A DNA stretch of 60,476 bases from a virus. Its lineage: Duplodnaviria; Caudoviricetes. How positions within the stretch are numbered: the stretch's first letter is position 1; each line of letters starts with the position of its first letter. The DNA lies in the IMG/VR virus record IMGVR_UViG_3300021437_000022, positions 1 through 60,476 of that record; one strand, 5' to 3'. The position numbers were made by a program, and so were the translations under genes. The notes below the pieces were generated by a model. The model was not told the DNA's origin, did not search any database, and saw nothing but the letters and a program-made list of their open reading frames with translations. This document shows, one piece after another, positions 1,236 through 31,447 of this stretch.

Positions 1236-3491
1236 TTATACCCCTTGATGATTGCCGGTCTGGACGGCGGTTTGAAGTGCTGAGTTTGCTGCGGCCAATT
1301 CGTGCCGCGAACGTTCCTTGATCGCCGTCTCCGCAAGGGAGGCCTTGATCTGTTCGATGGATATCTTTTCCTGCAGCGCCAGCTTCAGGATCATCAGCTC
1401 GCGCTCTGCTTGCAACTCTTGCAAGCGCATCCGTTGATTCTGTTGGGCGATTTCCAATTCGCCTTGGGCCTTCGCCTGGGCCACCTGTACATCTGCCGCA
1501 TTGCGCGCGGCTTCCGATTGCGCCCGGATCGTTGCGGCCTGAATCCGCGGGTCTTGTGGCGCGGCCTGCTGCTGTGCCTTGGCGGCGTTCGCTTCGACTT
1601 CCTCGTCCGTCAACATGATTTCTGTCGGATCGATGTGCTGCGCCTTGAGCGAATTCTCGAACAGCTTTTTCAGGTTCAGCATCGGTGCAAAGACCGGGTT
1701 GGTCGCGAGCGCCAACATCTGCATATACGCTTGGTTCTGAATGTCCCGGATCAACAGGGTCGAACTACCGCGAGCGTCAACGTTGAAGTCGCCCTTGATG
1801 GACGAATCGTCGTTGTACATCATGTTGTAGTCGTAGTACCGGCGGATATGCGGCTTGGTGATGTAATCATCGAACTGCTTCACCAGACGCCGCAGCACCA
1901 CGTTCGCCGAATTCATGAGCATCTGCATGCCGCCCACCGTGTCCGGTGCGTTGCCTTGCTCGCCTTGCGTCAACTGCGGCACGCCGGTTTCGTCATCCAC
2001 GAACTTCAATGCCATGTCGATGATGGCCGACAACTCGCTTTGATGCGACGACACCTCGACCATGGTGAATGCAGACCGCACATCTGCGACTTCGTCGTTT
2101 GCGTACCAAATCTTGCGCGGCGTGACCGTCATCATCCCATCGGCCGGGGTGATCATGCCGTTCTTGATCACGATCTGCGGACCCGACGACACCCCGGCGT
2201 TGTCCATCAACTGACGCCATGCCGCATTGATGACGCTCTGCTGCCACTTCATGAGGCGCGGCACGCCCCAACCCCACACTTGTCCCGTGACTTTTTCCCA
2301 CGGGCAAATGTCGTACGGCAAGTCGCCGTTTTCTTGTGGGTTGAGGTACGCCTTCACCACGGTTGAATTGATCATGATCACGCAAGCCGACACACTGACC
2401 AACTCGTCATCATTGAGCATTGAGTCTTTCACACCCACCGTCTTCAGGTCTTCGGGGGACACCTCGCCCCAGTATTCCCAGACCTCGAACAGTTTGTCCT
2501 CGACATCCTTCGTCTGCTCGTCAAGGTCTTCCATGAGGGCGGATCGCTTCGGCCCTTCTTCCAACACCGCTCGCAGCGCTGTCGCGGAGTACCCTGGCTG
2601 CTTCGCCAGTCCCCGCACCAGCTTCGTCGTTTTCTTCTCGACCTCGAACACACCTTCGCCATCGTGCACGTTCTCACCGCACGCCGGGTCAGGGAACACC
2701 TTGCGCGGATCAACCCGGTATGACGCAGGCACCAGCTCTTCCTTGATCTCGATCACATGCACCGTTTGCCCCGAGGCATCGGTGTGAGGCGACCATGCAC
2801 GGCGAACGTGGTTCTCAACCACAGGACCCTTGACCACACCAGTGCCGAGCACCGCCATGTCATGGATCATCTTGCGAAGCTCGCCGTTGTAATCGGTCTC
2901 GTTCAACTGATCGTCGATGGCGTCCTGCATCCCTTCTGCAGCTTCCGTGCAGATGCGATGCACTTCGGCAGCGAGTTGCTTCTTCGTGACGGGTTGGCCA
3001 TCCTTGCCCACCATCGGCTGCCCCGTTGTCGGGTGCGAAGCCTGGGAAGCGTCCCTGCCCATGCGCGTCACATCGGCCATCGGGGTCGGTTGAATCCCCC
3101 AGTTGCGATCATCCGTCGGCAGCAAAATGTCAGATAGGCGCGCCTCTGCGGCATTGGTCTTCTGGCGCGTGATGCCGATGCGCACTGTCGAGCGTTGCGG
3201 CAAAGCCCCCTGGTTCGTGACCGGGTAACCTTGTTGCACCGAATCCATCATGTTCGCGACGCGACCCGTCGTGTTGTCGCGGCCGTGATACTGGTCCGTG
3301 TCTTCCTTCCACTGGCGATCGATGCCGAGCGCACGACGCGCTTTCACCCACTCGTCACGCTTCTTCGCGAGGCCTTGCCCGAACATCTGCAGTTTCAGCG
3401 CACGAGCTTCGTCCTGTGCCGCTGGGTCTGCATTGGCCGCGGAGTTGATATCCGGGTCAATCTCGTTCGTCGGGAAATCTGAGATGGCCAT
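1236..3491 (-). CDS. Portal protein (podovirus/P22-like)
   Basis: ~750 aa after terminase; DMAVLGTGVVK, EVWEYWG, WGWGVPRLMKWQQ, TGV motifs, Gln/Ala-rich C-terminal barrel. Confidence 0.9.
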   Translation of the reverse strand: MAISDFPTNEIDPDINSAANADPAAQDEARALKLQMFGQGLAKKRDEWVKARRALGIDRQWKEDTDQYHGRDNTTGRVANMMDSVQQGYPVTNQGALPQRSTVRIGITRQKTNAAEARLSDILLPTDDRNWGIQPTPMADVTRMGRDASQASHPTTGQPMVGKDGQPVTKKQLAAEVHRICTEAAEGMQDAIDDQLNETDYNGELRKMIHDMAVLGTGVVKGPVVENHVRRAWSPHTDASGQTVHVIEIKEELVPASYRVDPRKVFPDPACGENVHDGEGVFEVEKKTTKLVRGLAKQPGYSATALRAVLEEGPKRSALMEDLDEQTKDVEDKLFEVWEYWGEVSPEDLKTVGVKDSMLNDDELVSVSACVIMINSTVVKAYLNPQENGDLPYDICPWEKVTGQVWGWGVPRLMKWQQSVINAAWRQLMDNAGVSSGPQIVIKNGMITPADGMMTVTPRKIWYANDEVADVRSAFTMVEVSSHQSELSAIIDMALKFVDDETGVPQLTQGEQGNAPDTVGGMQMLMNSANVVLRRLVKQFDDYITKPHIRRYYDYNMMYNDDSSIKGDFNVDARGSSTLLIRDIQNQAYMQMLALATNPVFAPMLNLKKLFENSLKAQHIDPTEIMLTDEEVEANAAKAQQQAAPQDPRIQAATIRAQSEAARNAADVQVAQAKAQGELEIAQQNQRMRLQELQAERELMILKLALQEKISIEQIKASLAETAIKERSRHELAAANSALQTAVQTGNHQGV

Positions 3492-3496
3492 GGTGG

Positions 3497-4963
3497 TCAA
3501 TACCCTATGTCAGGATCAAGCACCCCAAACGAGGGCGCCACGATATGTCGTTGCAGTTTCTGCGCGGCCACTGCCGTCGCTTCGTCTTGCGTCTTGGCGA
3601 ATCGTTTCATCATGAGCGCGTACCGCGTCGCCGATATCGCATCATCAAATTCTTTCACCAACTTGCCATCCTTGCGGTGGTACTGCCTGAACTCGTCGAA
3701 CCAGTGCGTCAGGTGAGAAAACACCTTGAACCGCCCCGTTTGCATCCGGTCCAGCATCTCGGCAACCCCGGCCTCCACACCACTACCGCCGTCATCGAAC
3801 GTGGCTCGGTCTTTCAGCATGTTCAGTCCGGCCGTCTTGTACTGGGCGGCGAGCGTCTCGCCTGAACCCTTGTCATGTTGCAAGCCGTCGTGCGGCCACG
3901 CCACAGGGAACCAATCCCCTTTCGCACGAATCACCATCGCATTCTCAGGGACGGAACTCTTGCGCTTGATGTACACGTCGTATACGTACACCGTATCAGT
4001 GTCACGGTCCCAGGCCAGCCACACGGCGGCGGTGGGGTGATCCCATCCAAAATCCAAACCAATGATCTTCGGCCAATGCTTCGGGATTGCGAAGCCTTGG
4101 ACCTTGATCCCTGATTCCGTGACAGGGAACACCGCACCCTCACCCATCATCGGTACACCGTTGGCGCGTGCCTCGCGCTCATGCTCCGGATAAGCCGCGA
4201 TGATGGCGTCGCGCTGTTCCTGGGTGTAGTGCAGCGCGTCTGCAATGGTCATCTGTGTCACATGCGTGCCTGCCGGCCGCTCTTGCATGAACCGGCGTAC
4301 CACCTGCGACATGCCAAGCAGTGGCGTGAAAGTGAGCGCCACAATGCCTTGCGTCGCGTTCGTCCGTGTCAGGCCTTCGGTGTACAGGTCGAGCGGTGGT
4401 TCTTCGTCGAACCACACATAATCCAACGTGTCGGCCTGCCACTTGGTGCGACCCTGGTCATAAGATTGAAGCTGTATCACTGAGTCATCACCACAGCGAT
4501 GCCGTACGACAATGCTTGCTACTGCATCGGGCACACCGGTTCGCAACGCCGTGTTGCGCAGTGCAACTTTTGGTATGGCGCCAGTGCCCCACTGGTCCCG
4601 CTCTTCAGGGGAACCGAGCAATAGGCGTTGCACGCCTTTCTTCGTAAGCTCTGCCGACTCCGACCCTGCCATGGCACGGATTGCGTACGGGAACTTGCGC
4701 CCTTTCCACCAGTCCGGATATACGCCTGTCGCGTGCATCGCCATCTCAAAGGCGCCGCTTAACGTCTTGCCGAGCTGATTACCTGCGGCGAACAGGCGCT
4801 CACGGTGATCTGCGCCTGCGGTATGAAACTCTTCCTGTTTGGGGTAGGGCTTGTACCCTGCCAGCCGATTCTCTTTCTCTCTGCGGTGGCGCGTCTCTAG
4901 CACCCGGAGTAGCTCGCGCCTTTCTTCGGGTGTCAGGGTTGTGAGGTCAACACTCGGGGTCAC
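3497..4963 (-). CDS. terL: Terminase large subunit
   Basis: Walker A AGNQLGKT, Walker B WFDEEP, TFTP coupling motif, nuclease GLDFGWDHPTA and DDAISATRYA. Confidence 0.95.
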   Translation of the reverse strand: MTPSVDLTTLTPEERRELLRVLETRHRREKENRLAGYKPYPKQEEFHTAGADHRERLFAAGNQLGKTLSGAFEMAMHATGVYPDWWKGRKFPYAIRAMAGSESAELTKKGVQRLLLGSPEERDQWGTGAIPKVALRNTALRTGVPDAVASIVVRHRCGDDSVIQLQSYDQGRTKWQADTLDYVWFDEEPPLDLYTEGLTRTNATQGIVALTFTPLLGMSQVVRRFMQERPAGTHVTQMTIADALHYTQEQRDAIIAAYPEHEREARANGVPMMGEGAVFPVTESGIKVQGFAIPKHWPKIIGLDFGWDHPTAAVWLAWDRDTDTVYVYDVYIKRKSSVPENAMVIRAKGDWFPVAWPHDGLQHDKGSGETLAAQYKTAGLNMLKDRATFDDGGSGVEAGVAEMLDRMQTGRFKVFSHLTHWFDEFRQYHRKDGKLVKEFDDAISATRYALMMKRFAKTQDEATAVAAQKLQRHIVAPSFGVLDPDIGY

Positions 4964-5586
4964 AGGTCTACCGTGCGTGCTTCGTCGATGATGTGTTGAT
5001 TCATCGCCTTGCCGAGTAGCTGGCTTAGACGTTCGTCCACCTGTTCGTCAGTGAGCGCCACGGTCGTGTTTACTTGCACTTCGCGCTTCGCCTTGTACAC
5101 GTCGATAAGCCGCTCCACGACAAACTGCCGCGACTTAACGCGGAGTTCTGCCCGCTTGATCTCAGCCATGGATGCACTGCGTGGCACGTCATCGGCCAGA
5201 CTGATGATCTCCTCGGCGTAGGCCTGGGCACGGCGCCCGAGCGAATTCACGTACCTGGAGTACAGCGCCGGGTCAGAGTCGGCGAGGTCGTTAAACGCTT
5301 CACGGGTCAAGCCGTGCTTGCGTGTCGCTTCTTCGATCGTGGACCCTGCACCAATTTCACGGCAGATCGTCTCGAACCATTCCGCACGCTGTTCGATCGC
5401 TATGTCAGCGATGCGATCAAACAGGTTATTGCGCAGCGTTTCTTGCAAGCGTGCTTTCTTCTCTTTCTTCAACTGCGGCACTGCCCCCGAGGCAGGTGAA
5501 AGCGTGGTCAAGATATCGCCAGGGATGCCGCGCTTCGCCCGGTTCGGGTAACTCTTGCGCTGCTTGACAGGTGCTTCGTCGCTCAT
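4960..5586 (-). CDS. terS: Terminase small subunit
   Basis: Overlaps terL start; HTH-like ICREIGAG segment followed by YAEEIISLADD...RAELRVKSRQF. Confidence 0.8.
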   Translation of the reverse strand: MSDEAPVKQRKSYPNRAKRGIPGDILTTLSPASGAVPQLKKEKKARLQETLRNNLFDRIADIAIEQRAEWFETICREIGAGSTIEEATRKHGLTREAFNDLADSDPALYSRYVNSLGRRAQAYAEEIISLADDVPRSASMAEIKRAELRVKSRQFVVERLIDVYKAKREVQVNTTVALTDEQVDERLSQLLGKAMNQHIIDEARTVDL

Positions 5587-6543: not shown

Positions 6544-6571
6544 TAGACAAAGCTGTCTGCAAAAGTAGAAT
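6544..6571 (+). promoter_or_regulatory. Candidate sigma70 early promoter
   Basis: TAGACA-16 nt-TAGAAT in AT-rich divergent intergenic region, ~40 nt upstream of first + gene. Confidence 0.5.
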
Positions 6572-6608
6572 GACTTATATCAACTCACCCCACCTGAAAG
6601 GAACTGAC

Positions 6609-6878
6609 ATGAACGCCGTTCAATACCGCAAAAAATGCATGGCCCTTGCCGGGCAAATTGCCGGGCAAATTGCCGCGATCCCCTTCGATGATCAATTCTC
6701 CGCCATCGTGAACATTTTCAAGGCAGCCACCACGTCGCCCGCCTTGCGCGCTGATGTGTTTTGGTTGCTTGATAACGAGCCGGGGCACTGGGCATCGCTG
6801 GGCCAGTGGCACGGTGCCTTGCGCCAAGTGCGCAACACTCCGAGCGAAGGCGAAAAGCTTTTCGCCTTGTTTGCGTAA
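6609..6878 (+). CDS. Early hypothetical protein
   Basis: TGAAAGGAA RBS then ATG; MNAVQYRKKC... Confidence 0.75.
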   Translation: MNAVQYRKKCMALAGQIAGQIAAIPFDDQFSAIVNIFKAATTSPALRADVFWLLDNEPGHWASLGQWHGALRQVRNTPSEGEKLFALFA

Positions 6879-6911
6879 TCGATTTCGTTCCTAACCCTGA
6901 AAGGAAATACC

Positions 6912-7412
6912 ATGTTCTCAGACTTTTCCGATCCGCTACCCTTTTCACGCACAAGCCCCGTGGGTCAACCCTTGCCTGTGCGCACCAAATTTTGCGAGGC
7001 GTTCATTGCTCATCCTGATCGTTATTATTCGGAACCGGATTGGGCGATTGTGTCCGCGCACAGAGCGAGCAACACAGAGGAGCAAAACCGGTTTGCGCGC
7101 AACACCTTTGCCGCGTACCTGCGCATGCACAATTACGCCTTCTCTTCGGTAGTGGGTCACTACAACGGGGTCCGCGAACACGCGTTTTTTATCGTGTGCT
7201 CTGCATACGGTGCTCGCCACTTCGGCCGGGTGCTCGGGCAAGAGTCAGTGCTGACGCACGAGGGTTTGGTTTGGACCGATGGCCGCAACCAAGACCCGGT
7301 GCCGTTTAATCATCTCGCACCGGCAATCCTGGGCGACGCCGCCAGGGAGGAACAAAATTTTACAACTTTCATCGAATCTGGCGTGCACTGGTCAGCAGCT
7401 CTGTTATTCTGA
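6912..7412 (+). CDS. SAM lyase (T3 gp0.3 SAMase-like), anti-restriction
   Basis: IVSAHRASNTEEQN...GHYNGVREHAF...LGQESVL..GLVW parallels T3 SAMase VSAFRSN..EVN...GCY..E..EQDCVL..GLVY; early location; strong RBS. Confidence 0.8.
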   Translation: MFSDFSDPLPFSRTSPVGQPLPVRTKFCEAFIAHPDRYYSEPDWAIVSAHRASNTEEQNRFARNTFAAYLRMHNYAFSSVVGHYNGVREHAFFIVCSAYGARHFGRVLGQESVLTHEGLVWTDGRNQDPVPFNHLAPAILGDAAREEQNFTTFIESGVHWSAALLF

Positions 7413-7420
7413 CTGCACCA

Positions 7421-7472
7421 GGACGAAACCGGCGCGAGCCGGTCTGCAGGTTGTGCCTGCACTGACGAGTCC
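7421..7472 (+). ncRNA. Hammerhead ribozyme, type II, copy 1 (cleavage after C7444)
   Basis: GGAC-GAAA-CCGGC(GCGA)GCCGG-UC-UGCAGG(UUGUG)CCUGCA-CUGACGA-GUCC: full CUGANGA/GAAA/GUC core with three perfect stems. Confidence 0.93.
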
Positions 7473-7500
7473 AGACGATTCACCTTTTTGGTGTATTACC

Positions 7501-7788
7501 ATGCGCGGATATGAAGACATTGTGAGAGGCAACGCGGCGGCGCAAGCCTTGGGCATCGAATTGCCGACCGGCGCCATTGGCACGACGGCGCTTGAATCGA
7601 AGGGCCACAGCTCGGCGCAAGGCGGCCTGCGCGGCCACAGCATCGGTTCGGATTACCCGTTCACCGTCACGCGATTTGGCGATCGGTATCAGGCCTACCA
7701 TTGCTTGCACCCCGAGCAATCGGGCCCCGTAGTTGACACCTACTCCGAAGCCGCGGCTTACATTGCCTCCCAGCACCTCCACGCCTGA
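7501..7788 (+). CDS. Hypothetical protein, sole gene between ribozymes 1 and 2
   Basis: MRGYEDIVRG..., 95 aa, fills the inter-ribozyme space; weak RBS. Confidence 0.7.
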   Translation: MRGYEDIVRGNAAAQALGIELPTGAIGTTALESKGHSSAQGGLRGHSIGSDYPFTVTRFGDRYQAYHCLHPEQSGPVVDTYSEAAAYIASQHLHA

Positions 7789-7791
7789 CCA

Positions 7792-7843
7792 GGACGAAAC
7801 CGGCGCGAGCCGGTCTGCAGGTTGTGCCTGCACTGACGAGTCC
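7792..7843 (+). ncRNA. Hammerhead ribozyme, type II, copy 2 (cleavage after C7815)
   Basis: Identical to copy 1 over 52 nt; starts 3 nt after TGA. Confidence 0.93.
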
Positions 7844-7867
7844 AACCAACCCTTGAAAGGAAACACC

Positions 7868-8182
7868 GTGAACATGAATTCTCTCCCAAATGCCAAGGTG
7901 CGCAGCGCCGTAGAGGGGCGCCTCACATTCTGCAACGCCAATGCCACGCTCTACGGCAAGTGGTTTGATGACGGTCAAACGTACGTCGTTTTTTCGTACG
8001 GCTCGCATTGGCCCTTGTTTCTCTATCGCGCGGGCTTGTGGTACGAGAACAAGCAACGTGCTAGCACCACGACCACGCGTCATGCGACCGTTGCCCGTCC
8101 GCGCTCGTGCCTTCCGATTCTCGACGCCACCACAGAATCCTTGTTCGTGTTGATCGCTTCCGCTCGTGAGGTAGCAGCATGA
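7868..8182 (+). CDS. Early hypothetical protein
   Basis: TGAAAGGAA RBS, GTG/ATG start; YVVFSYGSHWPL...STTTTRH motif. Confidence 0.8.
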   Translation: MNMNSLPNAKVRSAVEGRLTFCNANATLYGKWFDDGQTYVVFSYGSHWPLFLYRAGLWYENKQRASTTTTRHATVARPRSCLPILDATTESLFVLIASAREVAA

Positions 8183-8478
8183 GCACATACCACACTCCGG
8201 GCCCGTGGGCTGCTTACGGCCAGACCGTCATGGCGGTTTCGCATGGCAAGTGGTTCACCATTTGCCACGTTAATGGCACGAACCACACAAAGGAAGGCAA
8301 TGAAGCAAATGCCGCATTCATTGCTTCCGCACCCAAGATCAAGAAGCAGCGGGACGAATTGCTTGCTGCGCTTGATGCAATAGTGACTGCTGTTTATAAC
8401 GAGGAGGCGGTATCGCCGTGGTCGCCCGAGTACCGCAACGCACTTACCGCAATCGCCAAGGCACGGGGGCAAGCATGA
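8179..8478 (+). CDS. Conserved phage protein (HTPGPW...ANAAFIASAP family)
   Basis: Widespread small phage protein motif; ATGA overlaps. Confidence 0.8.
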   Translation: MSTYHTPGPWAAYGQTVMAVSHGKWFTICHVNGTNHTKEGNEANAAFIASAPKIKKQRDELLAALDAIVTAVYNEEAVSPWSPEYRNALTAIAKARGQA

Positions 8479-8591
8479 GCCGCTCCGAGAAAGTGTGGAA
8501 CGCAATCGCCTGCATCTGTTTCGTGTTGCTGCCGTTCGTGTTTGCGTGGCTCGGCATGTTGCTTGCTGAAATTGCTCGCAACCCAATCTGA
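8475..8591 (+). CDS. 38-aa single-pass membrane protein (not in ORF track)
   Basis: MSRSEKVWNAIACICFVLLPFVFAWLGMLLAEIARNPI; ATGA overlap with upstream gene. Confidence 0.55.
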   Translation: MSRSEKVWNAIACICFVLLPFVFAWLGMLLAEIARNPI

Positions 8592-8601
8592 AAGGTTCGT
8601 C

Positions 8602-9087
8602 ATGAAAACAATCCAAGTCTCTGAAGCGTCGGGCACAGTGCTCGACTATCTGGTGGCGAAGGCGCAAGGTTTTGAAGTGGAAATTCGCACAGGTGAACAG
8701 CGCTACGCCGATCTCATGGCGTCAAACCCTGATACTGATCTCGACTTCGCCGAGGTTATACGCTTCGGCAAACCGCGCCTGACTTACAACAATCCTGTTC
8801 CCGGCATGTCATTGCCTCGTTTTTCGTCTTGCTGGACGCAAAGTGGACCGATCATTGATCGAGAAGGCATCTTGCTGCGCCCGCTGCGCCGTGCCGGGCA
8901 TGCACTGGACGGGCAGTGTCTGGCGATGTACGACGGCGGAAACACAGGGTCCGTGGTGCAGTGGATTAAGAATAAAGATTGGAGGCACCACTATTTGAGC
9001 GGTCCCACGTCCCTCGTGGCAGCCATGCGTTGCTTCGTGGTGCGCAAATTGGGCGACACTGCTGAAGTGCCCGACGAATTAGTTTGA
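8602..9087 (+). CDS. DUF2591/NinX-like phage protein
   Basis: LDYLVAKAQG...FSSCW..SGPIIDRE.I...GPTSLVAAMRCFV..LGD..EVPDEL. Confidence 0.75.
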   Translation: MKTIQVSEASGTVLDYLVAKAQGFEVEIRTGEQRYADLMASNPDTDLDFAEVIRFGKPRLTYNNPVPGMSLPRFSSCWTQSGPIIDREGILLRPLRRAGHALDGQCLAMYDGGNTGSVVQWIKNKDWRHHYLSGPTSLVAAMRCFVVRKLGDTAEVPDELV

Positions 9088-9089
9088 CA

Positions 9090-9141
9090 GGACGAAACCG
9101 GCGTGAGCCGGTCTGCAGGTTGTGCCTGCACTGACGAGTCC
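9090..9141 (+). ncRNA. Hammerhead ribozyme, type II, copy 3 (cleavage after C9113)
   Basis: Same as copies 1/2 except stem III loop GCGA->GUGA, still a GNRA tetraloop; starts 2 nt after TGA. Confidence 0.93.
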
Positions 9142-9161
9142 AACCATTGAAAGGAATCACC

Positions 9162-9599
9162 ATGTTGCGCTACATCGCCCCCGGCGTGGAGAACGAGCCC
9201 GAATACTACGGCACCCTCCAAGCCATGCCCAATCCCCAATTTATTCCGGCCTGGGTTGTCCACACGTTCACGTTTTCGTGTGGCGCCCCGGTCTGGGTCG
9301 GACACTCCGGCAACGTGCCGGAGGATCGCACCTACACCCTCACGCTGGCCGAAGTGGACGAGATGATCCAGGCCAAGGGTGACAGCGTGGTGCTTTCGCG
9401 CATCGTGCTGTCCGGATTGAATCGCCGCGAGAAAGCCGCCGCCGCGATAGCGCCGGCAACCGAAGCGTGGCTTGCCGCGACGCGTGATTTTGGTGCTTTC
9501 TCTGGCGAAGAGTCCGCGGCCTGGGACGCTTTCGAAAACGCGCAGATCACCTATCTGGCTTTCTCGGAACGCGCACGCGGAGAATCGACATGCGCCTGA
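9162..9599 (+). CDS. Early hypothetical protein
   Basis: TGAAAGGAA RBS then ATG, 20 nt after ribozyme 3. Confidence 0.75.
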   Translation: MLRYIAPGVENEPEYYGTLQAMPNPQFIPAWVVHTFTFSCGAPVWVGHSGNVPEDRTYTLTLAEVDEMIQAKGDSVVLSRIVLSGLNRREKAAAAIAPATEAWLAATRDFGAFSGEESAAWDAFENAQITYLAFSERARGESTCA

Positions 9600-9859
9600 C
9601 CAATTACCGCGATGGCCGGGTGTTTGGCGCCTACGCTTCCACCAAACACCATGACCCAATGTACTCGACTGCAGAACTGGCGATTGTGCTGTTCACCACG
9701 ACGCGCAGCCTGACGCATCTGATCCGCCTGCAAACCGTAGCAGGCAACCCACCGCCGCCGTGCTGCACCCTGGCCACCTGCGGAGGCAAGGTCAAGCGCT
9801 ATCCTTTGCACGCCTTCACGGCGTGGTTCGAGTCAACCAAGGAAATATCATGCAAGTAG
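9590..9859 (+). CDS. Hypothetical protein
   Basis: 89 aa, GGAG RBS, overlaps neighbours. Confidence 0.6.
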   Translation: MRLTNYRDGRVFGAYASTKHHDPMYSTAELAIVLFTTTRSLTHLIRLQTVAGNPPPPCCTLATCGGKVKRYPLHAFTAWFESTKEISCK

Positions 9860-10065
9860 ATCGCATTGCATCTTGGGAACAAATCGCCGCCCTGGCCCAC
9901 GATCTGCGGGTCTCGACGGACGCCGCCCAATACGTGCACCACGAGATGATCCGACACGGGTACTTCGACACGGCGCTCGTGCCTGCGCATCTGTGGGAGC
10001 GCTGGACCCGAGGCGACCGTTTCCCTGTCCCCGAAAGTTTCTACACCCGCTACCGCCTCGACTGA
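9850..10065 (+). CDS. Hypothetical protein
   Basis: AAGGA RBS, MQVDRIASW... Confidence 0.65.
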   Translation: MQVDRIASWEQIAALAHDLRVSTDAAQYVHHEMIRHGYFDTALVPAHLWERWTRGDRFPVPESFYTRYRLD

Positions 10066-10075
10066 GAGAACCCTC

Positions 10076-10468
10076 ATGAACAACACTGCCCATCACCCCG
10101 CGCTCGACAAGCACCTGACTGCGCAGGTGCACAAGTATCTCGCCATGCCCGGCACGTTCGGCATGGTCACGGGCCGCGACCGCATGCGCGAACTGGACAT
10201 CACGTTTTTTGGCCCGGCCTGGGACTTCCGATCATTGGACGAAGCGAAGCATCACCAGATTTCAAAAGGCAATGACATCTTGTCGGAGTTTCTGAAGGCG
10301 CGAAACCGCACACAGGAAGCGGTGGCCTTGCTGGAAGCCAACCCCGGCATGTCCGCCCGGGAGGCTTCGCGGCGGTGCGGTGTCGATGTGATGGCGGTGC
10401 TGCGCGCCTTGCGCATTTCCGACAAGCCGCGATGCCCTCACTGCGGCTCACTCATTCGTCATTCGTAG
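10076..10468 (+). CDS. HTH + CxxC protein (putative DNA-binding)
   Basis: NPGMSAREASRRCGV HTH-like segment, C-terminal CPHCG. Confidence 0.65.
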   Translation: MNNTAHHPALDKHLTAQVHKYLAMPGTFGMVTGRDRMRELDITFFGPAWDFRSLDEAKHHQISKGNDILSEFLKARNRTQEAVALLEANPGMSAREASRRCGVDVMAVLRALRISDKPRCPHCGSLIRHS

Positions 10469-10977
10469 GACCGGCGCCCGAGTCGTCGCATCACCTGGGC
10501 GTCTGTCTCAAACTCTTTTTGCAGTATCAGGCCGCGCACCCACTTGGCGGCCTCGTTTCTTCCAGGCATGTCAGGCAACGCCCGTTCTCCCGTCCCGCCA
10601 CAGTGTGGGCAATCCGCTTCCTGCAGCACCTGCACATTGCCGTCGATGGTCAGGTGCCCTCTTCCCCCGCACACCTTGCAGTTGCAATCCAGGTAGTGAT
10701 CCAGCACCTGCATCACCACCTTGCGGGCGTCCTGCCAATTCACAATAGGCGCGTATTTGCTGCGCCGCAGCTCTTTCTCCAGCAGCTCGACGGTGATCTG
10801 CGCCACGCTGCCGTCCTGCGCGTACTTCAATCGCCACAGCGCCGCGCCCAATGGGTTTTTTGCCCCCGCCATGCCCATTGCCCGTACCACGTCAATGTCC
10901 GCAACGTCGTCAAGGTTGTCGGCCTCTCCGAGGTCGCTCGATTCCATTGCACTCGACATCCTTTTATTTCCGCTCAT
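10459..10977 (-). CDS. Antiterminator Q-like zinc-finger protein
   Basis: DVVRAMGMA...ALWRLKY; CKVCGGRG...CPHCGGTG. Confidence 0.7.
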   Translation of the reverse strand: MSGNKRMSSAMESSDLGEADNLDDVADIDVVRAMGMAGAKNPLGAALWRLKYAQDGSVAQITVELLEKELRRSKYAPIVNWQDARKVVMQVLDHYLDCNCKVCGGRGHLTIDGNVQVLQEADCPHCGGTGERALPDMPGRNEAAKWVRGLILQKEFETDAQVMRRLGRRSYE

Positions 10978-11062
10978 TCCGTCGCCTTTTCAATGCCGCC
11001 CCGGCTTGATTCCTGGGGCCTGGGAGCCGCGCAATCTGTTTTCTGGTAGGTGGATGCCTCCT

Positions 11063-12481
11063 CTACCCTTTCAACGCCTCCAGGAGCCCGTTTTGCAAGT
11101 TGCCTTTCCCGGCCAACCGCTCCGGCAGCTTGTCTTCAATCGTGTCGGCCGCACACAACACCCTGACCAGCACATGCCCGGCCTGGGTGCCATGCCGGTG
11201 CAGCCGGGAATTCAATTGCTTGAAGTGATCCAAGTCATGCGGGCATCCGTACCAGACGACATTGTGCCCCGCGCCCTGTAGCCCGTCCAGGCCGTGCCCG
11301 CCTTCCTTCGGATGCATGACCAGCACAGGGAACTTCCCTGCAATCCAGTCCTGCAGCCGATCGATGCGCCCGGCCTTCTTGCCCAAGCGTTTCAGGATGG
11401 CTTCACGGTCCGCCGTGTAGCGATAGCCGACGATGATTCCCCGTTCCGTGTTTTCCACGATTTCCTCCAAGGCGTCCAGCTTCGCCTCGTGCACCACCTG
11501 CGCCGTTTTCTCCCCGTCCTCGGTCTCGACAATCACGCGACCGTTTGCGATCTGCAACAGCTTCGCCAGCTTCGTTCCGGCTTGCGCCGCGGTCAGGATG
11601 TTGCCGTTCACTTCCGCCACCAGCTCGCGCTTGAGTTCGTCGTGCAGCACCTTGGCATGGTTCGGGATGCGCACCCATTCCGGCGTGATAATCAACTCAG
11701 GCAGCTCCAGCCAATCCTCTTGCCGAAACGCAAAACAAATATCCTTGACGGCGTCAATCACGCTTTCCTTGTCGCGCATTTCCCACATCGGCACGGTGCG
11801 GTTTCCCACCTCGATCGTGTGGCTGACGCGCATGAACCGTTCCCGGAATTCCTTCTTGCTCTTTCCCAGGCGCTTGCCTCCGTCCAACAACCCCACTGGC
11901 GAGTAAATATCCTCCAGGCCATTCGCCGCCGGGGTTCCGGTCAACTCCACGAATCGATTCAGGAAAGGGCGCACGGCACGCACGGCCCTGAACACCAGAT
12001 TCTTCGACGACAACAGGCTGCGCGCTTCGTCGATGGCCAATCCGTCATAGGGGAAATTGACCCCGTAGGCCTTGACCAGATGCGGAAACTGTTCATTGCT
12101 CACCAGATGGATCGTTTCCGGCATGCCTTGCAGGCGCTTCTTCGTCCCGGCCCGATCCTTGATTGTCAGCATCTTGCGCGCGGGGTCTTTCGGGTGTTGC
12201 ACCCGGTGCAGGTGGATATCGTCCGTATCCACGATTCGCCAGTCCAGGTGCTGGGTGTGCGCCCACTTGGCAATTTCCTTGGGCCATGTGAGCTGAATCA
12301 CCCGCTTGGGCGCCACAATCAACCACCGCGTGGTCTCGAACCTGTCTTCTTGCAACGCGACGATCGCCGACAACAGACTCACGCTCTTGCCAAGTCCTGG
12401 GTCCGCCCACAAGGCGCAGGCCTCCAGGTCCAGCACGGCCTGCGTCATGCGCTTCTGATACTCCCTCGCCGTGTATTCCAT
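11063..12481 (-). CDS. SNF2-family helicase
   Basis: REYQ Q-motif, DPGLGKS, LIVAP, IDEAR, LTGTPAAN, GHGLD.LQ, Q..SRLHRHG. Confidence 0.92.
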   Translation of the reverse strand: MEYTAREYQKRMTQAVLDLEACALWADPGLGKSVSLLSAIVALQEDRFETTRWLIVAPKRVIQLTWPKEIAKWAHTQHLDWRIVDTDDIHLHRVQHPKDPARKMLTIKDRAGTKKRLQGMPETIHLVSNEQFPHLVKAYGVNFPYDGLAIDEARSLLSSKNLVFRAVRAVRPFLNRFVELTGTPAANGLEDIYSPVGLLDGGKRLGKSKKEFRERFMRVSHTIEVGNRTVPMWEMRDKESVIDAVKDICFAFRQEDWLELPELIITPEWVRIPNHAKVLHDELKRELVAEVNGNILTAAQAGTKLAKLLQIANGRVIVETEDGEKTAQVVHEAKLDALEEIVENTERGIIVGYRYTADREAILKRLGKKAGRIDRLQDWIAGKFPVLVMHPKEGGHGLDGLQGAGHNVVWYGCPHDLDHFKQLNSRLHRHGTQAGHVLVRVLCAADTIEDKLPERLAGKGNLQNGLLEALKG

Positions 12482-12771
12482 CAGGCTTTCATCCTTGCCA
12501 GAAACAAATCGACGCCTTCGCGTGTGTCGGCCCAACCCGCCACGCACCCCATGCGTGTCAGCCGCTCGATCCACCAGCGCTGCAGCCTCTCCGGCTTCTT
12601 TCCTGTTTTCTTCAGCTCGATGAATCCAATGCGGTTCGGCGCAATGATCACCAATCGATCCGGCAGTCCGTCCCACCCCAGCTTGATCGTGAATCCCTTG
12701 CGCCGCTTGACCTCCTGCCCAAGGTAATCCTCCAGGTTCAGCTCTTTCGCCCCGATGCTCAGGTCAATCAT
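12481..12771 (-). CDS. VRR-NUC domain nuclease
   Basis: GLPDRLV...FIELK..GKKP..LQ PD-(D/E)xK motif. Confidence 0.88.
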   Translation of the reverse strand: MIDLSIGAKELNLEDYLGQEVKRRKGFTIKLGWDGLPDRLVIIAPNRIGFIELKKTGKKPERLQRWWIERLTRMGCVAGWADTREGVDLFLARMKA

Positions 12772-13535: not shown

Positions 13536-16049
13536 TCAGTACAGGTCTGTGCTCTCCAAATCCGCTGCGCGCTGCCGGCGCAACTGTTCTTCCTTCAACT
13601 TTTGGTCGTTGAACATGTCAAACACGGCCGGATTGATCGCCCACGCCGTGCCATCCGCGAACAGGAAGCCACGTTTCGCGCTACGTCGCGCCGACACATC
13701 GGCCACCAACCACCCTGCCGAGTGCAGTGCGTTGATGATTTTCCCCTGTTCCCGCGGCTCCAGGCGCACCCATCCGGTCATGTGTCGGTCCAATTCCCGG
13801 CGTGTCAGGGTTGTGTCGAGGCTTCCATCTTCCTTTCTGTCACGCTGCAGCACCATGGCGCCGATGTTGCGCAGGTGCTTCTTCAGGCTCATCTGGTCGT
13901 TCTGGTCGTAGAAGTTGCGCGCGTGCCCCATGAGCCAACCCACGAATCGGCAGGCTTGTGTCATGGTATCCAGGTTGATTTCCGGGGGGACATCCTCACC
14001 GAGAAAGTTATCGGGGTCCGTATCGGCCCAGGCCCACTTCGCCAGATGCATCGCACAAGCCACCCTGGCCAAGTGCGTCTGCCACTTGTAGAGCCACATC
14101 GCCATGTGTGAGGAGGTTTCCGTGTCGGCCAATCGGCGGGCTCGGGCCGCGCTCTCGTCGAACAGGCGTTGTGCAGATTCGTCGAACCGAATGGTCATCT
14201 CGGGCAGGTTGCGCAGGCGCGGGAACATGGCGCCGTAGTGTGACAACTGTGCCATGTCTTCGTTGATGTGTTCCCCGGAGGGACTGCCGCCACGTAGCAC
14301 CACGGTCAGGAAGCGCGCCATCATGCCGTCCTCGGCGCCGGGCACCAGGACGCGCTGCGCCACCTCGGGTTGCGTGCACCCCATGACGCTCAGGGCGAAC
14401 CTGGGGATGGAGTGCACGCCGGACTTGCGCCCCACGGTGAACGGGTCGCCGTTGTAGCCTTGCAGCAGGTCAGCGCGGTCCGAGGAGGCGCCCACCTTGT
14501 ATTGGCCCATGCCACAAATCCAACCCGACAATTCGTCCGCCTTGAACAGCACGCTGCGGTTTGGGTAGGCGGCGGTGCAGGCGTCGAAGATGTATTCGGT
14601 GGTCGAGTTGTTGATGATGCTGGGAGTGAAGACCGGTTTCTTGCTGAGCAAGACCAGCTTGTCCTCTTTCGAGGCGAACTTCAGATCATCGTTCCACTGT
14701 GCCATGTTCGAGGCGTGGCGCGCGGCTTCGGCTTCGTGGATGGTGGCGAGAGGGGATAGCGGCGCATTCAGAATTGGCGTCTTGCCGATGCCGGAGCCGC
14801 CGATCGCCACGCACCACAGGTTACACGAGGTGGTGAAGCTGGGTTCTCGGCGCGCGGGGTTCACTCTCACATGGAGCGGGATGGCAGAGGCGACGGCGCC
14901 CACGGCGAAGAGTAGATAGCCGGCCGGGTCCTGGCCACGCACGGTGGCGTAGTGATCGGCGAAGCGGTGGAGGAAATCCGGGGCGCTGTCGGGCTTGACT
15001 TCGGGGGGCTCTTCCGTGGCCCAAAGGTCTACGGGTTCCGACAGGTCTACGTGGGGCTTCTCGAACCGCTCCAGTAGCGCCATGAAATCGTCGTGAGCCG
15101 ATGGCCCCCATCCTGTTTTCCTGGCGCGCCAGAAGATGGAGGCGGCGGTCACGAGTTTGCGGTCGGGGGTGAGACTGCCGTCTTTCACGTAGGCCCAGAT
15201 GCGCTCGTCGAAGAACTCGGCGTCGAACTTGTCGCTGCGCGCGCTGAACTGTTCCGCCAGCGCCTTGCCTTCGTCGGAGCCGTTGGTGGCGTAGTGGATG
15301 CCGAAAATGCACTCCAACCACTCCGCATAGGGCAGGCCTTCCCCGTCGTTCGGGATGCTCGCGAGCGCATCTTGCAGGACGTGCAGGTCGTCGGTTGCCG
15401 GAGCGGGTTGTGGTGGTGTTTTGACTTTCTGCGTTTTCGGCACGTCCCGACTGAAGGCAAACTCGAACGGGGCGTCGCGGGTCTCAGGCTCGAACATGAC
15501 CGGGCAGATCGGTACGGACTTGCCTGCGAGCGGGAGGACAAACATGTTTCCCCACTCACCTTCTCCTACTTTGTCTTGCTTCGGGAACACTTCGACTTGA
15601 GCGTTCACGAGCCCCTTCGTGCCGTTGGACAGGTAGGCTTCGGAGAGTAAGGCGGTCAGGGCTGCACGTACGTCGCGCGCTTCCTGCGGGGTTTTCCACA
15701 AGAAGATCATGTGGGCGCCACTGCCCCCGCTCGATCGAAAACAGGTGGGGATGAGGCCCATGGCGTATGCGAAACCGGACAATTGCTCCAGGGTTTTGCA
15801 TACATCGGCGAAGGAGAGTTCACCTTTGTGGGAGTCCAGGTCGAGCAAGCCGACGCGGGTGGTGGAGGTGCCTGCATCCATGGGATAGGCGCCGTACTGG
15901 TTGCTGCCGTGGGCGTGGTTGTGGAGGGCTTCGGTGTCGAGCGGGAGTCGCTGCGCCCGTGGCCCATCCTTGAACTTCTCGGCCCGCACGTCGCGACGAA
16001 CGCGGTCAGTGAGGGGAGACAGCCTTGCAATGATCTGTTGCGTCGTCAT
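13536..16049 (-). CDS. Primase-helicase-like replication protein (AEP primase + PriCT-2 + DUF3987-like P-loop domain)
   Basis: LDLD and SSGGSGAH AEP motifs, YAEWLECIFGIH...FSARSDKFD PriCT-2, GGSGIGKT Walker A, DEL. Confidence 0.85.
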   Translation of the reverse strand: MTTQQIIARLSPLTDRVRRDVRAEKFKDGPRAQRLPLDTEALHNHAHGSNQYGAYPMDAGTSTTRVGLLDLDSHKGELSFADVCKTLEQLSGFAYAMGLIPTCFRSSGGSGAHMIFLWKTPQEARDVRAALTALLSEAYLSNGTKGLVNAQVEVFPKQDKVGEGEWGNMFVLPLAGKSVPICPVMFEPETRDAPFEFAFSRDVPKTQKVKTPPQPAPATDDLHVLQDALASIPNDGEGLPYAEWLECIFGIHYATNGSDEGKALAEQFSARSDKFDAEFFDERIWAYVKDGSLTPDRKLVTAASIFWRARKTGWGPSAHDDFMALLERFEKPHVDLSEPVDLWATEEPPEVKPDSAPDFLHRFADHYATVRGQDPAGYLLFAVGAVASAIPLHVRVNPARREPSFTTSCNLWCVAIGGSGIGKTPILNAPLSPLATIHEAEAARHASNMAQWNDDLKFASKEDKLVLLSKKPVFTPSIINNSTTEYIFDACTAAYPNRSVLFKADELSGWICGMGQYKVGASSDRADLLQGYNGDPFTVGRKSGVHSIPRFALSVMGCTQPEVAQRVLVPGAEDGMMARFLTVVLRGGSPSGEHINEDMAQLSHYGAMFPRLRNLPEMTIRFDESAQRLFDESAARARRLADTETSSHMAMWLYKWQTHLARVACAMHLAKWAWADTDPDNFLGEDVPPEINLDTMTQACRFVGWLMGHARNFYDQNDQMSLKKHLRNIGAMVLQRDRKEDGSLDTTLTRRELDRHMTGWVRLEPREQGKIINALHSAGWLVADVSARRSAKRGFLFADGTAWAINPAVFDMFNDQKLKEEQLRRQRAADLESTDLY

Positions 16050-31271: not shown

Positions 31272-31447
31272 TCTGGACCTTGCTGTTCTGGGGAGTGATC
31301 GCCTGCGCCGCGGTCATCACCCACTGCACCACCCGAGTCGAGCGTAATGATTTTGCGTTCTGGCTCGTGGTGGGGTGCAGTGTTATCGGTCTGATCGGGT
31401 TCACCTGGGAGTGTGTCACCGCCGGCCGGATCATCTTCACATGGTAG
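31268..31447 (+). CDS. 59-aa two-TM membrane protein
   Basis: TTG start overlapping kinase stop; two hydrophobic segments. Confidence 0.5.
   Translation: MIWTLLFWGVIACAAVITHCTTRVERNDFAFWLVVGCSVIGLIGFTWECVTAGRIIFTW

What the first reader, a model, noticed from the sequence alone, without database searches (positions are those of the whole stretch)
7412..9162. Early operon punctuated by three near-identical hammerhead ribozymes
Seen: a 52-nt element at 7421, 7792 and 9090 has the complete hammerhead core (CUGACGA, GAAA, GUC cleavage triplet) and three perfect stems in type II topology. Each copy starts 2-8 nt after a stop codon and ends 20-28 nt before the next start, on the sense strand. The only difference among copies (GCGA->GUGA) preserves a GNRA tetraloop, as expected under selection on RNA structure. 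Established: hammerheads self-cleave to give 5'-OH and 2',3'-cyclic phosphate ends. They have been found in phage and bacterial intergenic DNA, mostly with unknown function. Inference: the phage processes its earliest polycistronic mRNA without proteins, analogous to RNase III cutting of the T7 early transcript. Each downstream piece would begin with 5'-OH plus the stem I hairpin, and each upstream piece would end in a GNRA hairpin plus cyclic phosphate, so both ends may be nuclease-resistant. This would be a natural insulator/stabiliser system for host-takeover genes.
Basis: partly seen in the sequence, partly recalled or inferred. Interest (0 to 1): 0.93.

Follow-up and report, generated by a model that had tools for sequence, protein, structure and literature searches.

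The report
Three hammerhead ribozymes between phage genes
Three almost identical self-cutting RNA motifs (type II hammerhead ribozymes) sit between small genes of an uncultured freshwater phage and probably cut one long message into four pieces. Arrays like this in phages have been known since 2011, so this is a genuine but ordinary example.

Summary
A 52-nt element lies at 7421-7472, 7792-7843 and 9090-9141 on the + strand. The copies differ at one loop base. Each has the full hammerhead core and three perfect stems in type II topology.

Rfam's Hammerhead_II model hits all three, but below its gathering score (28.6-31.3 vs 37 bits). That threshold also misses 65 of 67 similar elements in other phages.

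Independent support is strong. A core-only pattern finds at least 119 viral contigs, and its reversed control finds none. Stems I and III pair in 156 of 161 of those hits and covary. A model built only from other phages scores the window's copies at 68 bits, with the next best at 11.

The interpretation, protein-free processing of a polycistronic phage mRNA, is plausible but not new. Perreault et al. 2011 (PMC3088659) described clustered hammerheads flanking phage genes and showed cleavage of a triple array. This scan has about 495 similar notes on other DNA.

Cleavage, early timing and nuclease resistance are untested here.

The only unusual trait is the near-identity of the three copies.

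Verdict: a real new member of a known kind, of low interest.

The parts
7421..7472 (+). Hammerhead 1 (type II). Stem II 7421-7424/7469-7472; GAA 7425-7427; stem III 7428-7433/7438-7443 with loop GCGA; C17 at 7444 (cut expected between 7444 and 7445); stem I 7445-7450/7456-7461 with loop UUGUG; CUGACGA 7462-7468.
   Evidence: RF02276, 31.3 bits, below gathering 37; 68.4 bits with model R1, built from other phages.
7792..7843 (+). Hammerhead 2, identical to hammerhead 1. C17 at 7815, so the new 5' end would be 7816.
   Evidence: 30.7 bits; 68.4 bits.
9090..9141 (+). Hammerhead 3. It has one difference from the others: loop III is GUGA. C17 at 9113, so the new 5' end would be 9114.
   Evidence: 28.6 bits; 68.8 bits.
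6609..6878 (+). First small ORF of the + strand block (89 aa from ATG 6609). It is preceded by the shared RBS motif AAGGAACTGACATG.
   Evidence: repeat families D3 and D7. No family match.
6912..7412 (+). ORF just upstream of hammerhead 1 (166 aa), with a DUF3293 / S-AdoMet-lyase-like domain that scores below threshold.
   Evidence: PF23780, 26.7 bits against a cut-off of 28; relatives carry DUF3293 and PF23780; the same domain occurs inside 2,000-3,800-aa polyvalent proteins.
7501..7788 (+). Single 95-aa ORF between hammerheads 1 and 2. The excised RNA would be 7445-7815 (371 nt).
   Evidence: weak match to phrog_29226, 4.4e-05.
7868..9087 (+). Four tightly packed ORFs between hammerheads 2 and 3: 7868-8182, 8179-8478, 8475-8591 and 8602-9087 (NinX-like). 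The excised RNA would be 7816-9113 (1,298 nt).
   Evidence: phrog_1273 at 1e-11; phrog_4389 at 2e-19; PF10765 NinX, 46.3 bits against a cut-off of 22.6.
9162..11049 (+). Rest of the + strand block after hammerhead 3: ORFs 9162-9599, 9590-9859, 9850-10065 and 10076-10468, and an ORF that ends at 11049. The block meets the end of the minus-strand helicase gene (11063-12676).
7845..7872 (+). Shared 5' UTR / RBS motif (..AACC..TTGAAAGGAA.CACC-start) downstream of hammerheads 2 and 3 (the second copy is at 9139-9166). A hammerhead-free copy lies at 6889-6916.
   Evidence: families D3 and D4; alignment A3.
6544..6571 (+). The only sigma-70-like promoter match upstream of the block (TAGACA-16-TAGAAT, 10 of 12). 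It is a candidate only.
   Evidence: 1 site found against 1.7 expected, so no better than chance.

Best explanation
The three elements are functional type II hammerhead ribozymes. They are transcribed as part of a + strand polycistronic mRNA that covers the small-gene block from about 6600 to 11050.

Once all 52 nt of an element are made, it folds into the three-way junction and cuts itself 3' of C17 (after 7444, 7815 and 9113). The transcript is thereby split into four pieces:
- genes 1-2
- gene 3 alone (371 nt)
- genes 4-7 (1,298 nt)
- genes 8 onward

Each upstream piece keeps its stop codon. It ends 26-32 nt later in the GC-rich stem III hairpin, with a GNRA loop, a 1-nt overhang and a 2',3'-cyclic phosphate. 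Each downstream piece starts with a 5'-OH directly on the stem I hairpin, followed by a free Shine-Dalgarno site.

The likely consequence is that the expression and decay of each piece become independent of its neighbours. This would make the elements a natural counterpart of ribozyme insulators.

Shown here: motif, fold, strand, placement, and conservation and covariation in relatives. Inferred: cleavage in this phage, the end chemistry, and effects on stability or translation.
For: Core and helices:
- All core positions and the three core-adjacent pairs required by Perreault 2011 are present. Their criteria were read; the sequence is.
- The MFE fold is the hammerhead junction.
- RF02276 hits all three copies at E = 0.00066 to 0.0035 in a 2-kb search.

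Conservation in other phages:
The reversed pattern finds 0.
- The same pattern finds 66 stretches in bacterial genomes of many phyla.
- In 156 of 161 non-window hits, both unconstrained stretches form hairpins of 5 bp or more. Shuffles gave a mean of 0.24 and a maximum of 3.
- In a gapless 35-sequence alignment, 13 of 16 pairs show double changes. The covariation score is 0.824 against 0.161 when shuffled, and 0.10 or less when the partners are slid.
- The stems hold 31 G-U pairs and 2 A-C pairs among 1,296 cells not fixed by the pattern, so the structure is on the sense RNA.
- Model R1, built without the window, scores the window's copies at 68.4-68.8 bits. The next best hit scores 11.1.

Placement: 130 of 227 family members have a same-strand stop within 15 nt upstream and an SD-preceded start within 40 nt downstream. 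Only 3 of 227 do when read antisense. The window's copies fit this pattern.

Product folds: every 3' product starts with the stem I hairpin, and every 5' product ends with the stem III hairpin.

Literature:
- Triple prophage arrays cleave in vitro and in E. coli (PMC3088659, passages).
- Three type II hammerheads cleave in Desulfovibrio vulgaris cells (PMC8782182, passages).
- The ribozyme insulator RiboJ raised protein 2- to 10-fold and transcript about 2-fold in E. coli (PMC6206723, abstract).
Against: - No RNA data exist. No listed sequencing run is RNA, so transcription, cleavage and timing in this phage are untested.
- The Rfam gathering score is not reached.
- The loop I to 3'-tail pseudoknot that Perreault 2011 found critical for fast cleavage in many type II hammerheads is not supported in this sub-family. 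The mean complementarity is 2.87 nt, against 2.86 after re-pairing. Speed under low Mg2+ is therefore unknown.
- In copy 1 the MFE of the wider context is a competing fold that unpairs stem II.
- The alignment was drawn from elements that my script had already required to have stems of 4 bp or more, so its 100% pairing is partly by selection. One search is the unfiltered measure.
- Stabilisation by a 5'-OH depends on the host. From recall, the 5'-OH product of the glmS ribozyme is degraded by RNase J1 in Bacillus. The host of this phage is unknown.
- A 2019 review still calls the role of bacterial hammerheads largely elusive (PMC6765202, passages).
Confidence: 0.62

Rival explanations
1. Active hammerheads whose role is to destabilise or time gene expression. 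Cleavage would expose ends that trigger decay of the upstream or downstream piece, shutting genes off rather than insulating or stabilising them. It might be gated by the ribosome that terminates 2-8 nt upstream.
For: - The stop codon lies 2-8 nt before the element in the window. In the family the median gap is 2 nt, and 171 of 220 are within 15 nt. A terminating ribosome would therefore cover the 5' strand of stem II.
- Perreault 2011 raises regulated cleavage for phage hammerheads.
- From recall, the glmS precedent shows that a 5'-OH can be a decay signal.
Against: - Both new ends are flush hairpins, which usually protect RNA.
- The SD sites are unpaired both before and after cleavage in copies 2 and 3.
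- RiboJ raises expression in E. coli.
Confidence: 0.15
2. The hammerhead-plus-UTR unit is mainly a duplicating or recombining module that marks the borders of exchangeable gene cassettes. Self-cleavage would be tolerated or secondary.
For: - The three copies are 98-100% identical. Copies within other phages average 0.70 identity, barely above copies from different phages (0.66).
- Copies 2 and 3 also share the downstream UTR.
- The genes flanked by hammerheads are not constant, according to Perreault 2011 and in my data. Nine loci with NinX relatives have no hammerhead.
Against: - Strong purifying selection acts on the catalytic core and on pairing across at least 119 contigs, so an active RNA is being selected, not just a DNA repeat.
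- DNA contigs from three runs show no joints or cassette variants at the repeats.
Confidence: 0.12
3. Circular or trans-joined RNAs. All three copies share stem II, so the two ends of each excised piece can rebuild a complete hammerhead. They could then be religated, by the ribozyme or by an RtcB-type ligase, into 371-nt and 1,298-nt circular mRNAs.
For: - The type II topology puts the open helix (stem II) at the ends of the excised piece.
- Stem II is identical in all three copies.
- The products carry a 5'-OH and a 2',3'-cyclic phosphate, which is established hammerhead chemistry.
Against: - Perreault 2011 looked for spliced or circular products of prophage arrays and found none.
- In other phages only 47 of 110 neighbouring hammerhead pairs share stem II. 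Random pairing gives 59 +/- 5. Matching ends are therefore not selected.
Confidence: 0.05
4. Not ribozymes: a structured repeat such as a terminator, a protein-binding site or a REP-like element that matches the hammerhead core by chance.
For: Rfam scores are below the gathering threshold. No activity data exist.
Against: - All 13 core positions are present in all three copies.
- The reversed-pattern control gives 0 hits against at least 119 contigs.
- The core is invariant while the stems covary.
- There is no T-run after the hairpins.
Confidence: 0.03

Closest known systems
Clustered hammerhead ribozymes that flank single genes or short gene blocks in prophages (Perreault et al. 2011, PLoS Comput Biol, PMC3088659), for example the triple array of Agrobacterium tumefaciens around ardA
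   Same: - Several hammerheads, including type II, lie in sense orientation between phage genes.
- Processing of long phage transcripts into single-gene or operon-length mRNAs was proposed there.
- The gene just upstream of hammerhead 1 has a weak S-AdoMet-lyase-like / polyvalent-protein domain. This loosely echoes the anti-restriction gene ardA.
   Different: - This is an uncultured 60-kb freshwater phage record, not a prophage of a cultured bacterium.
- The three copies are nearly identical.
- There is no support for a pseudoknot.
- There are no activity data.
Rfam RF02276 Hammerhead_II
   Same: Same core, same permutation (stems I and III closed, stem II open), and a conserved A before stem II (alignment).
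   Different: - It scores 28.6-31.3 bits against a gathering score of 37.
- Stem II is 4 bp, loop I is 5 nt rather than about 10, and the 3' tail does not match.
- The threshold also misses 65 of 67 such elements in 11 other phage loci.
RiboJ and other synthetic ribozyme insulators (Clifton et al. 2018, PMC6206723, abstract read)
   Same: A self-cleaving hammerhead placed just upstream of an RBS. It removes the upstream RNA context and leaves a 5' hairpin.
   Different: RiboJ is engineered from a satellite-RNA ribozyme of a different permutation (this point is from recall). It sits behind promoters, not between genes of a natural operon.
RNase III processing of the phage T7 early transcript
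   Same: A long early polycistronic phage mRNA is cut at intergenic hairpins into stable single-gene messages.
   Different: In T7 a host protein enzyme cuts and leaves 5'-phosphate and 3'-OH ends. Here the RNA itself would cut and leave 5'-OH and 2',3'-cyclic-phosphate ends.
HHphage of haloviruses HF1 and HF2 (in Perreault et al. 2011)
   Same: A hammerhead lies a few nucleotides upstream of an early phage gene. The mapped 5' end of the transcript lies within 3 nt of the cleavage site.
   Different: It is a single copy, a core variant that needs high salt, and the host is an archaeon.

Membership tests
Hammerhead ribozyme (criteria of Perreault et al. 2011) | Conserved core: C3 U4 G5 A6 N7 G8 A9, G12 A13 A14, A15.1-U16.1, H17 | tested here: met
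   CUGACGA, GAA, an A-U pair closing stem III and C17 are present in all three copies. The criteria were read (Methods passage).
Hammerhead ribozyme (criteria of Perreault et al. 2011) | Three helices meet at the core, with no mispair next to the core (10.1-11.1, 1.1-2.1, 15.1-16.1) | tested here: met
   The pairs are G-C, U-A and A-U. Stems of 4, 6 and 6 bp have no mismatch. The MFE fold equals this junction.
Hammerhead ribozyme, type II permutation | Stems I and III closed by loops, and stem II open, so that it carries the 5' and 3' ends | tested here: met
Hammerhead ribozyme, type II permutation | Helices maintained by compensatory changes in relatives | tested here: met
   - 156 of 161 unfiltered pattern hits pair in both stems, against a shuffled mean of 0.24.
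- 13 of 16 pairs show double changes, with a covariation score of 0.824 against 0.161 (on a pre-filtered set).
- Stem II also varies, for example GGUC/GACC, GACC/GGUC, AGGC/GCCU and GAUC/GAUC.
Hammerhead ribozyme, type II permutation | Tertiary contact between stem I and stem II; in the published type II consensus this is a pseudoknot between loop I and the 3' tail | tested here: inconclusive
   - There is no family-wide pseudoknot signal (2.87 against 2.86).
- In copies 2 and 3 the tail CAACC is complementary to GGUUG at the tip of stem I. Copy 1 lacks this.
- Conserved instead: A before stem II (144 of 150), A after it (110 of 150), and U as the first base of loop I (35 of 35). From recall, this may be the loop-loop type of contact.
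Rfam RF02276 Hammerhead_II | Score at or above the curated gathering score (37 bits) | tested here: not met
   The scores are 31.3, 30.7 and 28.6 bits. This is a model threshold, not a property of the RNA. It misses 65 of 67 like elements in 11 other loci.
Hammerhead ribozyme | Site-specific self-cleavage that gives 5'-OH and 2',3'-cyclic-phosphate ends | not testable with these tools
   No RNA run holds the region. This needs in vitro transcription or end mapping.
Clustered phage hammerheads (Perreault et al. 2011, Fig. 3) | Several hammerheads close together, in sense orientation, flanking single genes or short gene blocks of a phage | tested here: met
   There are three copies within 1.7 kb, flanking one gene and then four genes. 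The record is a phage, with terminase, portal and DNA polymerase genes.

The most novel reading that the evidence does not exclude
All three ribozymes are identical, and a type II hammerhead opens at stem II. Each excised message (7445-7815 and 7816-9113) therefore carries two halves that can re-form a whole hammerhead around its own ends. The phage might in this way make small circular, exonuclease-proof mRNAs, by ribozyme-catalysed or RtcB-type ligation. The unusual sequence identity of the copies would be kept by selection for this end-to-end fit.
Probability: 0.05. Interest if true: 0.75.

Novelty: new member of a known kind. Interest (0 to 1): 0.27.

Why it matters
The biological role of bacterial and phage hammerheads is still open (2019 review). 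This window adds one clean, minimal example: three identical 52-nt ribozymes that cut out a single-gene piece and a four-gene piece.

The family-wide numbers collected here could help design a decisive reporter experiment:
- A stop codon lies a median of 2 nt upstream of the element.
- An SD-preceded start lies a median of 23 nt downstream.
- Stem II is 4 bp in 207 of 230 elements.
- Conserved A residues flank stem II.

The work also shows that Rfam's gathering score misses most of this architecture, which matters for annotating phage genomes. It does not reveal a new kind of system.

Tried and rejected
1. Rfam at gathering threshold over the whole window gave nothing. An E-value search of the whole window gave no ribozyme class other than the three hammerheads. 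A mir-375 hit at 7937-8013 (23 bits against 46.7) is taken as chance.

2. There are no tRNA or tmRNA genes.

3. blastn of 6900-9700 against the phage collection gave no match.

4. Looking for close relatives with syntenic hammerheads:
- Relatives of the NinX-like protein were found in 9 loci at 29-39% identity. None of these loci has a hammerhead.
- The protein of 6912-7412 has no relative in viral contigs and only itself in the 90% clusters.
- The window's exact stems, with free loops, occur in no other viral or genome contig. Conservation of position in near relatives could therefore not be tested.

5. Pseudoknot between loop I and the 3' tail: no signal.

6. A helix between the 5' flank of copy 1 and the region before ATG 7501 (-9.4 kcal/mol), which could mask stem II or the RBS, is not special. 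Family-wide flank-to-flank pairing equals re-paired controls: -6.15 against -6.10 +/- 0.14, and 34 of 217 against a mean of 33.4. I treat it as chance.

7. Coding coverage on the same strand against the opposite strand around hammerheads was uninformative, because long spurious ORFs are common in GC-rich DNA.

8. RNA evidence: no RNA holder is listed. Laying DNA contigs of three freshwater runs showed only that assemblies break at the repeats. There were no joints.

9. PDB sequence search, PADLOC and NCBIfam on the flanking proteins gave nothing useful.

10. Supplementary figures of PMC3088659 (Figs S1-S5) were not seen. They may show the exact triple-array architectures and the tertiary-contact classes.

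Full report
**What is there**

The window is a complete 60,476-bp virus record, classed as linear and 100% complete. It comes from freshwater metagenomes.

A 52-nt element occurs three times on the + strand, at 7421-7472, 7792-7843 and 9090-9141. It occurs nowhere else in the record, and 0 copies are expected by chance. Copies 1 and 2 are identical. Copy 3 differs by one base, which changes the stem III loop from GCGA to GUGA.

Read 5' to 3', each copy runs as follows:
- GGAC, the 5' strand of stem II
- GAA
- ACCGGC-GNGA-GCCGGU, stem III
- C, position 17
- UGCAGG-UUGUG-CCUGCA, stem I
- CUGACGA
- GUCC, the 3' strand of stem II

This is the complete hammerhead core with three uninterrupted helices. 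Stems I and III are capped and stem II is open, which is the type II permutation. The thermodynamic optimum of the 52-mer is exactly this junction. Cleavage would fall after 7444, 7815 and 9113.

**Is it more than a look-alike?**

Rfam's Hammerhead_II model (RF02276) finds all three copies and nothing else of note. The scores are 31.3, 30.7 and 28.6 bits, below the gathering score of 37. I therefore sought evidence that does not depend on that model.

- Pattern search. Many of these contigs hold 2-5 copies. The same pattern read backwards matched none. The forward pattern also matched 66 stretches of bacterial genomes from many phyla.
- Pairing of the free stretches. Among the 161 non-window matches, 156 form hairpins of at least 5 bp in both free stretches. 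Shuffling those stretches gives 0.24 on average and 3 at most.
- Covariation. A gapless alignment of 35 distinct 52-nt elements has an invariant core, with double changes at 13 of 16 pairs. The covariation score is 0.824, against 0.161 when shuffled and 0.10 or less with slid partners. This set had been pre-filtered for stems of at least 4 bp, so one search is the cleaner test.
- Strand. G-U pairs outnumber A-C pairs 31 to 2 among 1,296 cells not fixed by the pattern. This places the structure on the sense RNA.
- Independent model. A covariance model built from 33 elements of other phages, without the window, scores the window's copies at 68.4-68.8 bits. The next best hit in the window scores 11.1 bits. 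The phage therefore has exactly three such ribozymes.
- The Rfam threshold. It is insensitive to this architecture. In 11 other loci, where my structural scan counts 67 elements, Rfam reports 2.

**Architecture of the sub-family**

- Stem II is 4 bp in 207 of 230 elements found with a relaxed scan, and it covaries.
- H17 is C in 227 of 230 elements.
- An A precedes stem II in 144 of 150 elements and follows it in 110 of 150.
- Loop I begins with U in 35 of 35 aligned elements.
- Loop III is mostly a GNRA or UUCG tetraloop.
- The loop I to 3'-tail pseudoknot that Perreault et al. found in many type II hammerheads is not supported here (2.87 against 2.86 nt).
- From recall, the conserved U and A residues may make the loop-loop type of contact. 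That is not tested.

**Genomic setting**

The element-bearing genes form a + strand block of about twelve small ORFs, from 6609 to 11049. Minus-strand small and large terminase and portal genes (1236-5586) lie on one side. Minus-strand helicase (11063-12676) and primase-helicase (13536-16049) genes lie on the other.

Family matches confirm the + strand as coding: phrog_1273, phrog_4389 and Pfam NinX. The three hammerheads fill the three longest intergenic spacers. The other junctions overlap or are 10-33 nt long.

'Early operon' is a reasonable guess for such a block, but it is not shown. The single sigma-70-like site (6544-6571) is within chance expectation.

Across the family, placement is strikingly regular:
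- The element starts a median of 2 nt after a same-strand stop codon.
- An SD-preceded start lies a median of 23 nt after the element.
- 130 of 227 elements show both features in sense orientation, against 3 of 227 in antisense.

**How it most likely works**

The polycistronic RNA would cut itself at three places. Folding of the predicted products puts the stem I hairpin flush at the 5' end of every downstream piece. It puts the stem III hairpin, with a 1-nt overhang, at the 3' end of every upstream piece. The SD sites of genes 7868 and 9162 stay unpaired.

Established hammerhead chemistry gives 5'-OH and 2',3'-cyclic-phosphate ends. Whether such ends slow decay is an inference and depends on the host. 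The engineered analogue RiboJ raised protein 2- to 10-fold and transcript about 2-fold in E. coli (PMC6206723, abstract).

The upstream piece keeps its stop codon, with 26-32 nt behind it. Termination should therefore stay normal (inference).

**What is known**

Perreault et al. 2011 (PMC3088659; passages read) reported the first natural type II hammerheads. They state that multiple hammerheads often flank single genes or short blocks in prophages, and that this implies processing of long phage transcripts. They showed cleavage of three tandem arrays in vitro, and of the A. tumefaciens triple array around ardA in E. coli. They looked for circular or spliced products and found none.

Three type II hammerheads were later shown to cleave in D. 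vulgaris cells (PMC8782182, passages).

A 2019 review still calls the function in bacteria largely elusive, and repeats the idea of polycistronic processing (PMC6765202, passages).

This scan itself holds about 495 notes on phage hammerheads in at least 445 genomes, several of them arrays far denser than this one. In my own fetched loci, arrays reach 9 and 11 copies. The finding is thus a true positive of a described kind.

**What is particular here**

The three copies are 98-100% identical. Copies within other phages average 0.70 identity, hardly more than copies from different phages (0.66). Only one other locus, with two copies, matches the window's level.

Copies 2 and 3 also share the downstream UTR, up to the start codon. 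A hammerhead-free version of that UTR precedes gene 6912. This points to recent duplication or gene conversion of a ribozyme-plus-RBS module.

The shared stem II also means that the ends of each excised piece could rebuild a hammerhead, which allows a circular-RNA reading. Two results argue against that as a general function. Neighbouring hammerheads in other phages share stem II in only 47 of 110 pairs, where random pairing gives 59 +/- 5. Perreault et al. also reported a negative result for such products.

**Side observation**

The protein of 6912-7412, just upstream of hammerhead 1, matches the S-AdoMet-lyase family below threshold (26.7 against 28 bits). An exhaustive search found 49 relatives. 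They are small proteins that carry DUF3293 and PF23780, and 2,000-3,800-aa proteins that carry 'large polyvalent protein' domains. This fits a counter-defence role and loosely parallels ardA, but it is not established.

**Verdict**

This is a new member of a known kind, of low interest.

Noticed in passing
window 6912-7412 (+): This 166-aa protein has a sub-threshold S-AdoMet-lyase (PF23780) match. Its 49 remote relatives include small DUF3293 proteins and a domain inside 2,000-3,800-aa 'large polyvalent' proteins that carry LPD38 and InPase domains. It may be a counter-defence gene sitting next to a ribozyme, as ardA does in A. tumefaciens.
   Followed up: partly
window 6593-6611, 6889-6916, 7845-7872, 9139-9166, 9839-9852: A shared translation-initiation motif (..TGAAAGGAA...ACC/ATC-ATG) recurs five times in the + strand block. 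Two copies follow a hammerhead and three do not (families D3, D4 and D7).
   Followed up: partly
loci L004-L122 (viral contigs): Rfam's gathering threshold for RF02276 reports only 2 of the 67 type II hammerheads that a structural scan finds in 11 phage loci. Standard annotation therefore misses most of this 4-bp stem II architecture.
   Followed up: partly
loci with 2 or more hammerheads: Neighbouring hammerheads in one phage share the same stem II less often than random pairing predicts (47 of 110, against 59 +/- 5). This could reflect avoidance of cross-pairing between adjacent ribozymes. The sample is biased by how the loci were found.
   Followed up: no
L122, L103, L116, L094: Other viral contigs carry 11, 9, 8 and 7 type II hammerheads within a few kb, far denser than this window.
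   Followed up: no
window 31437-39047 (-): A 2,536-aa protein has an N-terminal lysozyme / transglycosylase-like region (phrog_873, phrog_7182) and a large C-terminal region that matches phrog_18222 of unknown function. It is probably an injected or virion-associated giant protein.
   Followed up: no
window 7420-7473, run X1 record 3: A 151-nt DNA contig from one freshwater run carries a hammerhead with 7 differences and unrelated flanks. A second phage with a similar ribozyme is therefore present in that sample.
   Followed up: no
window 7413-7423 with 7486-7495: In copy 1 the 5' flank can pair with the region just before ATG 7501. In the MFE fold this displaces stem II. Family-wide, such flank pairing is no more than chance.
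   Followed up: yes
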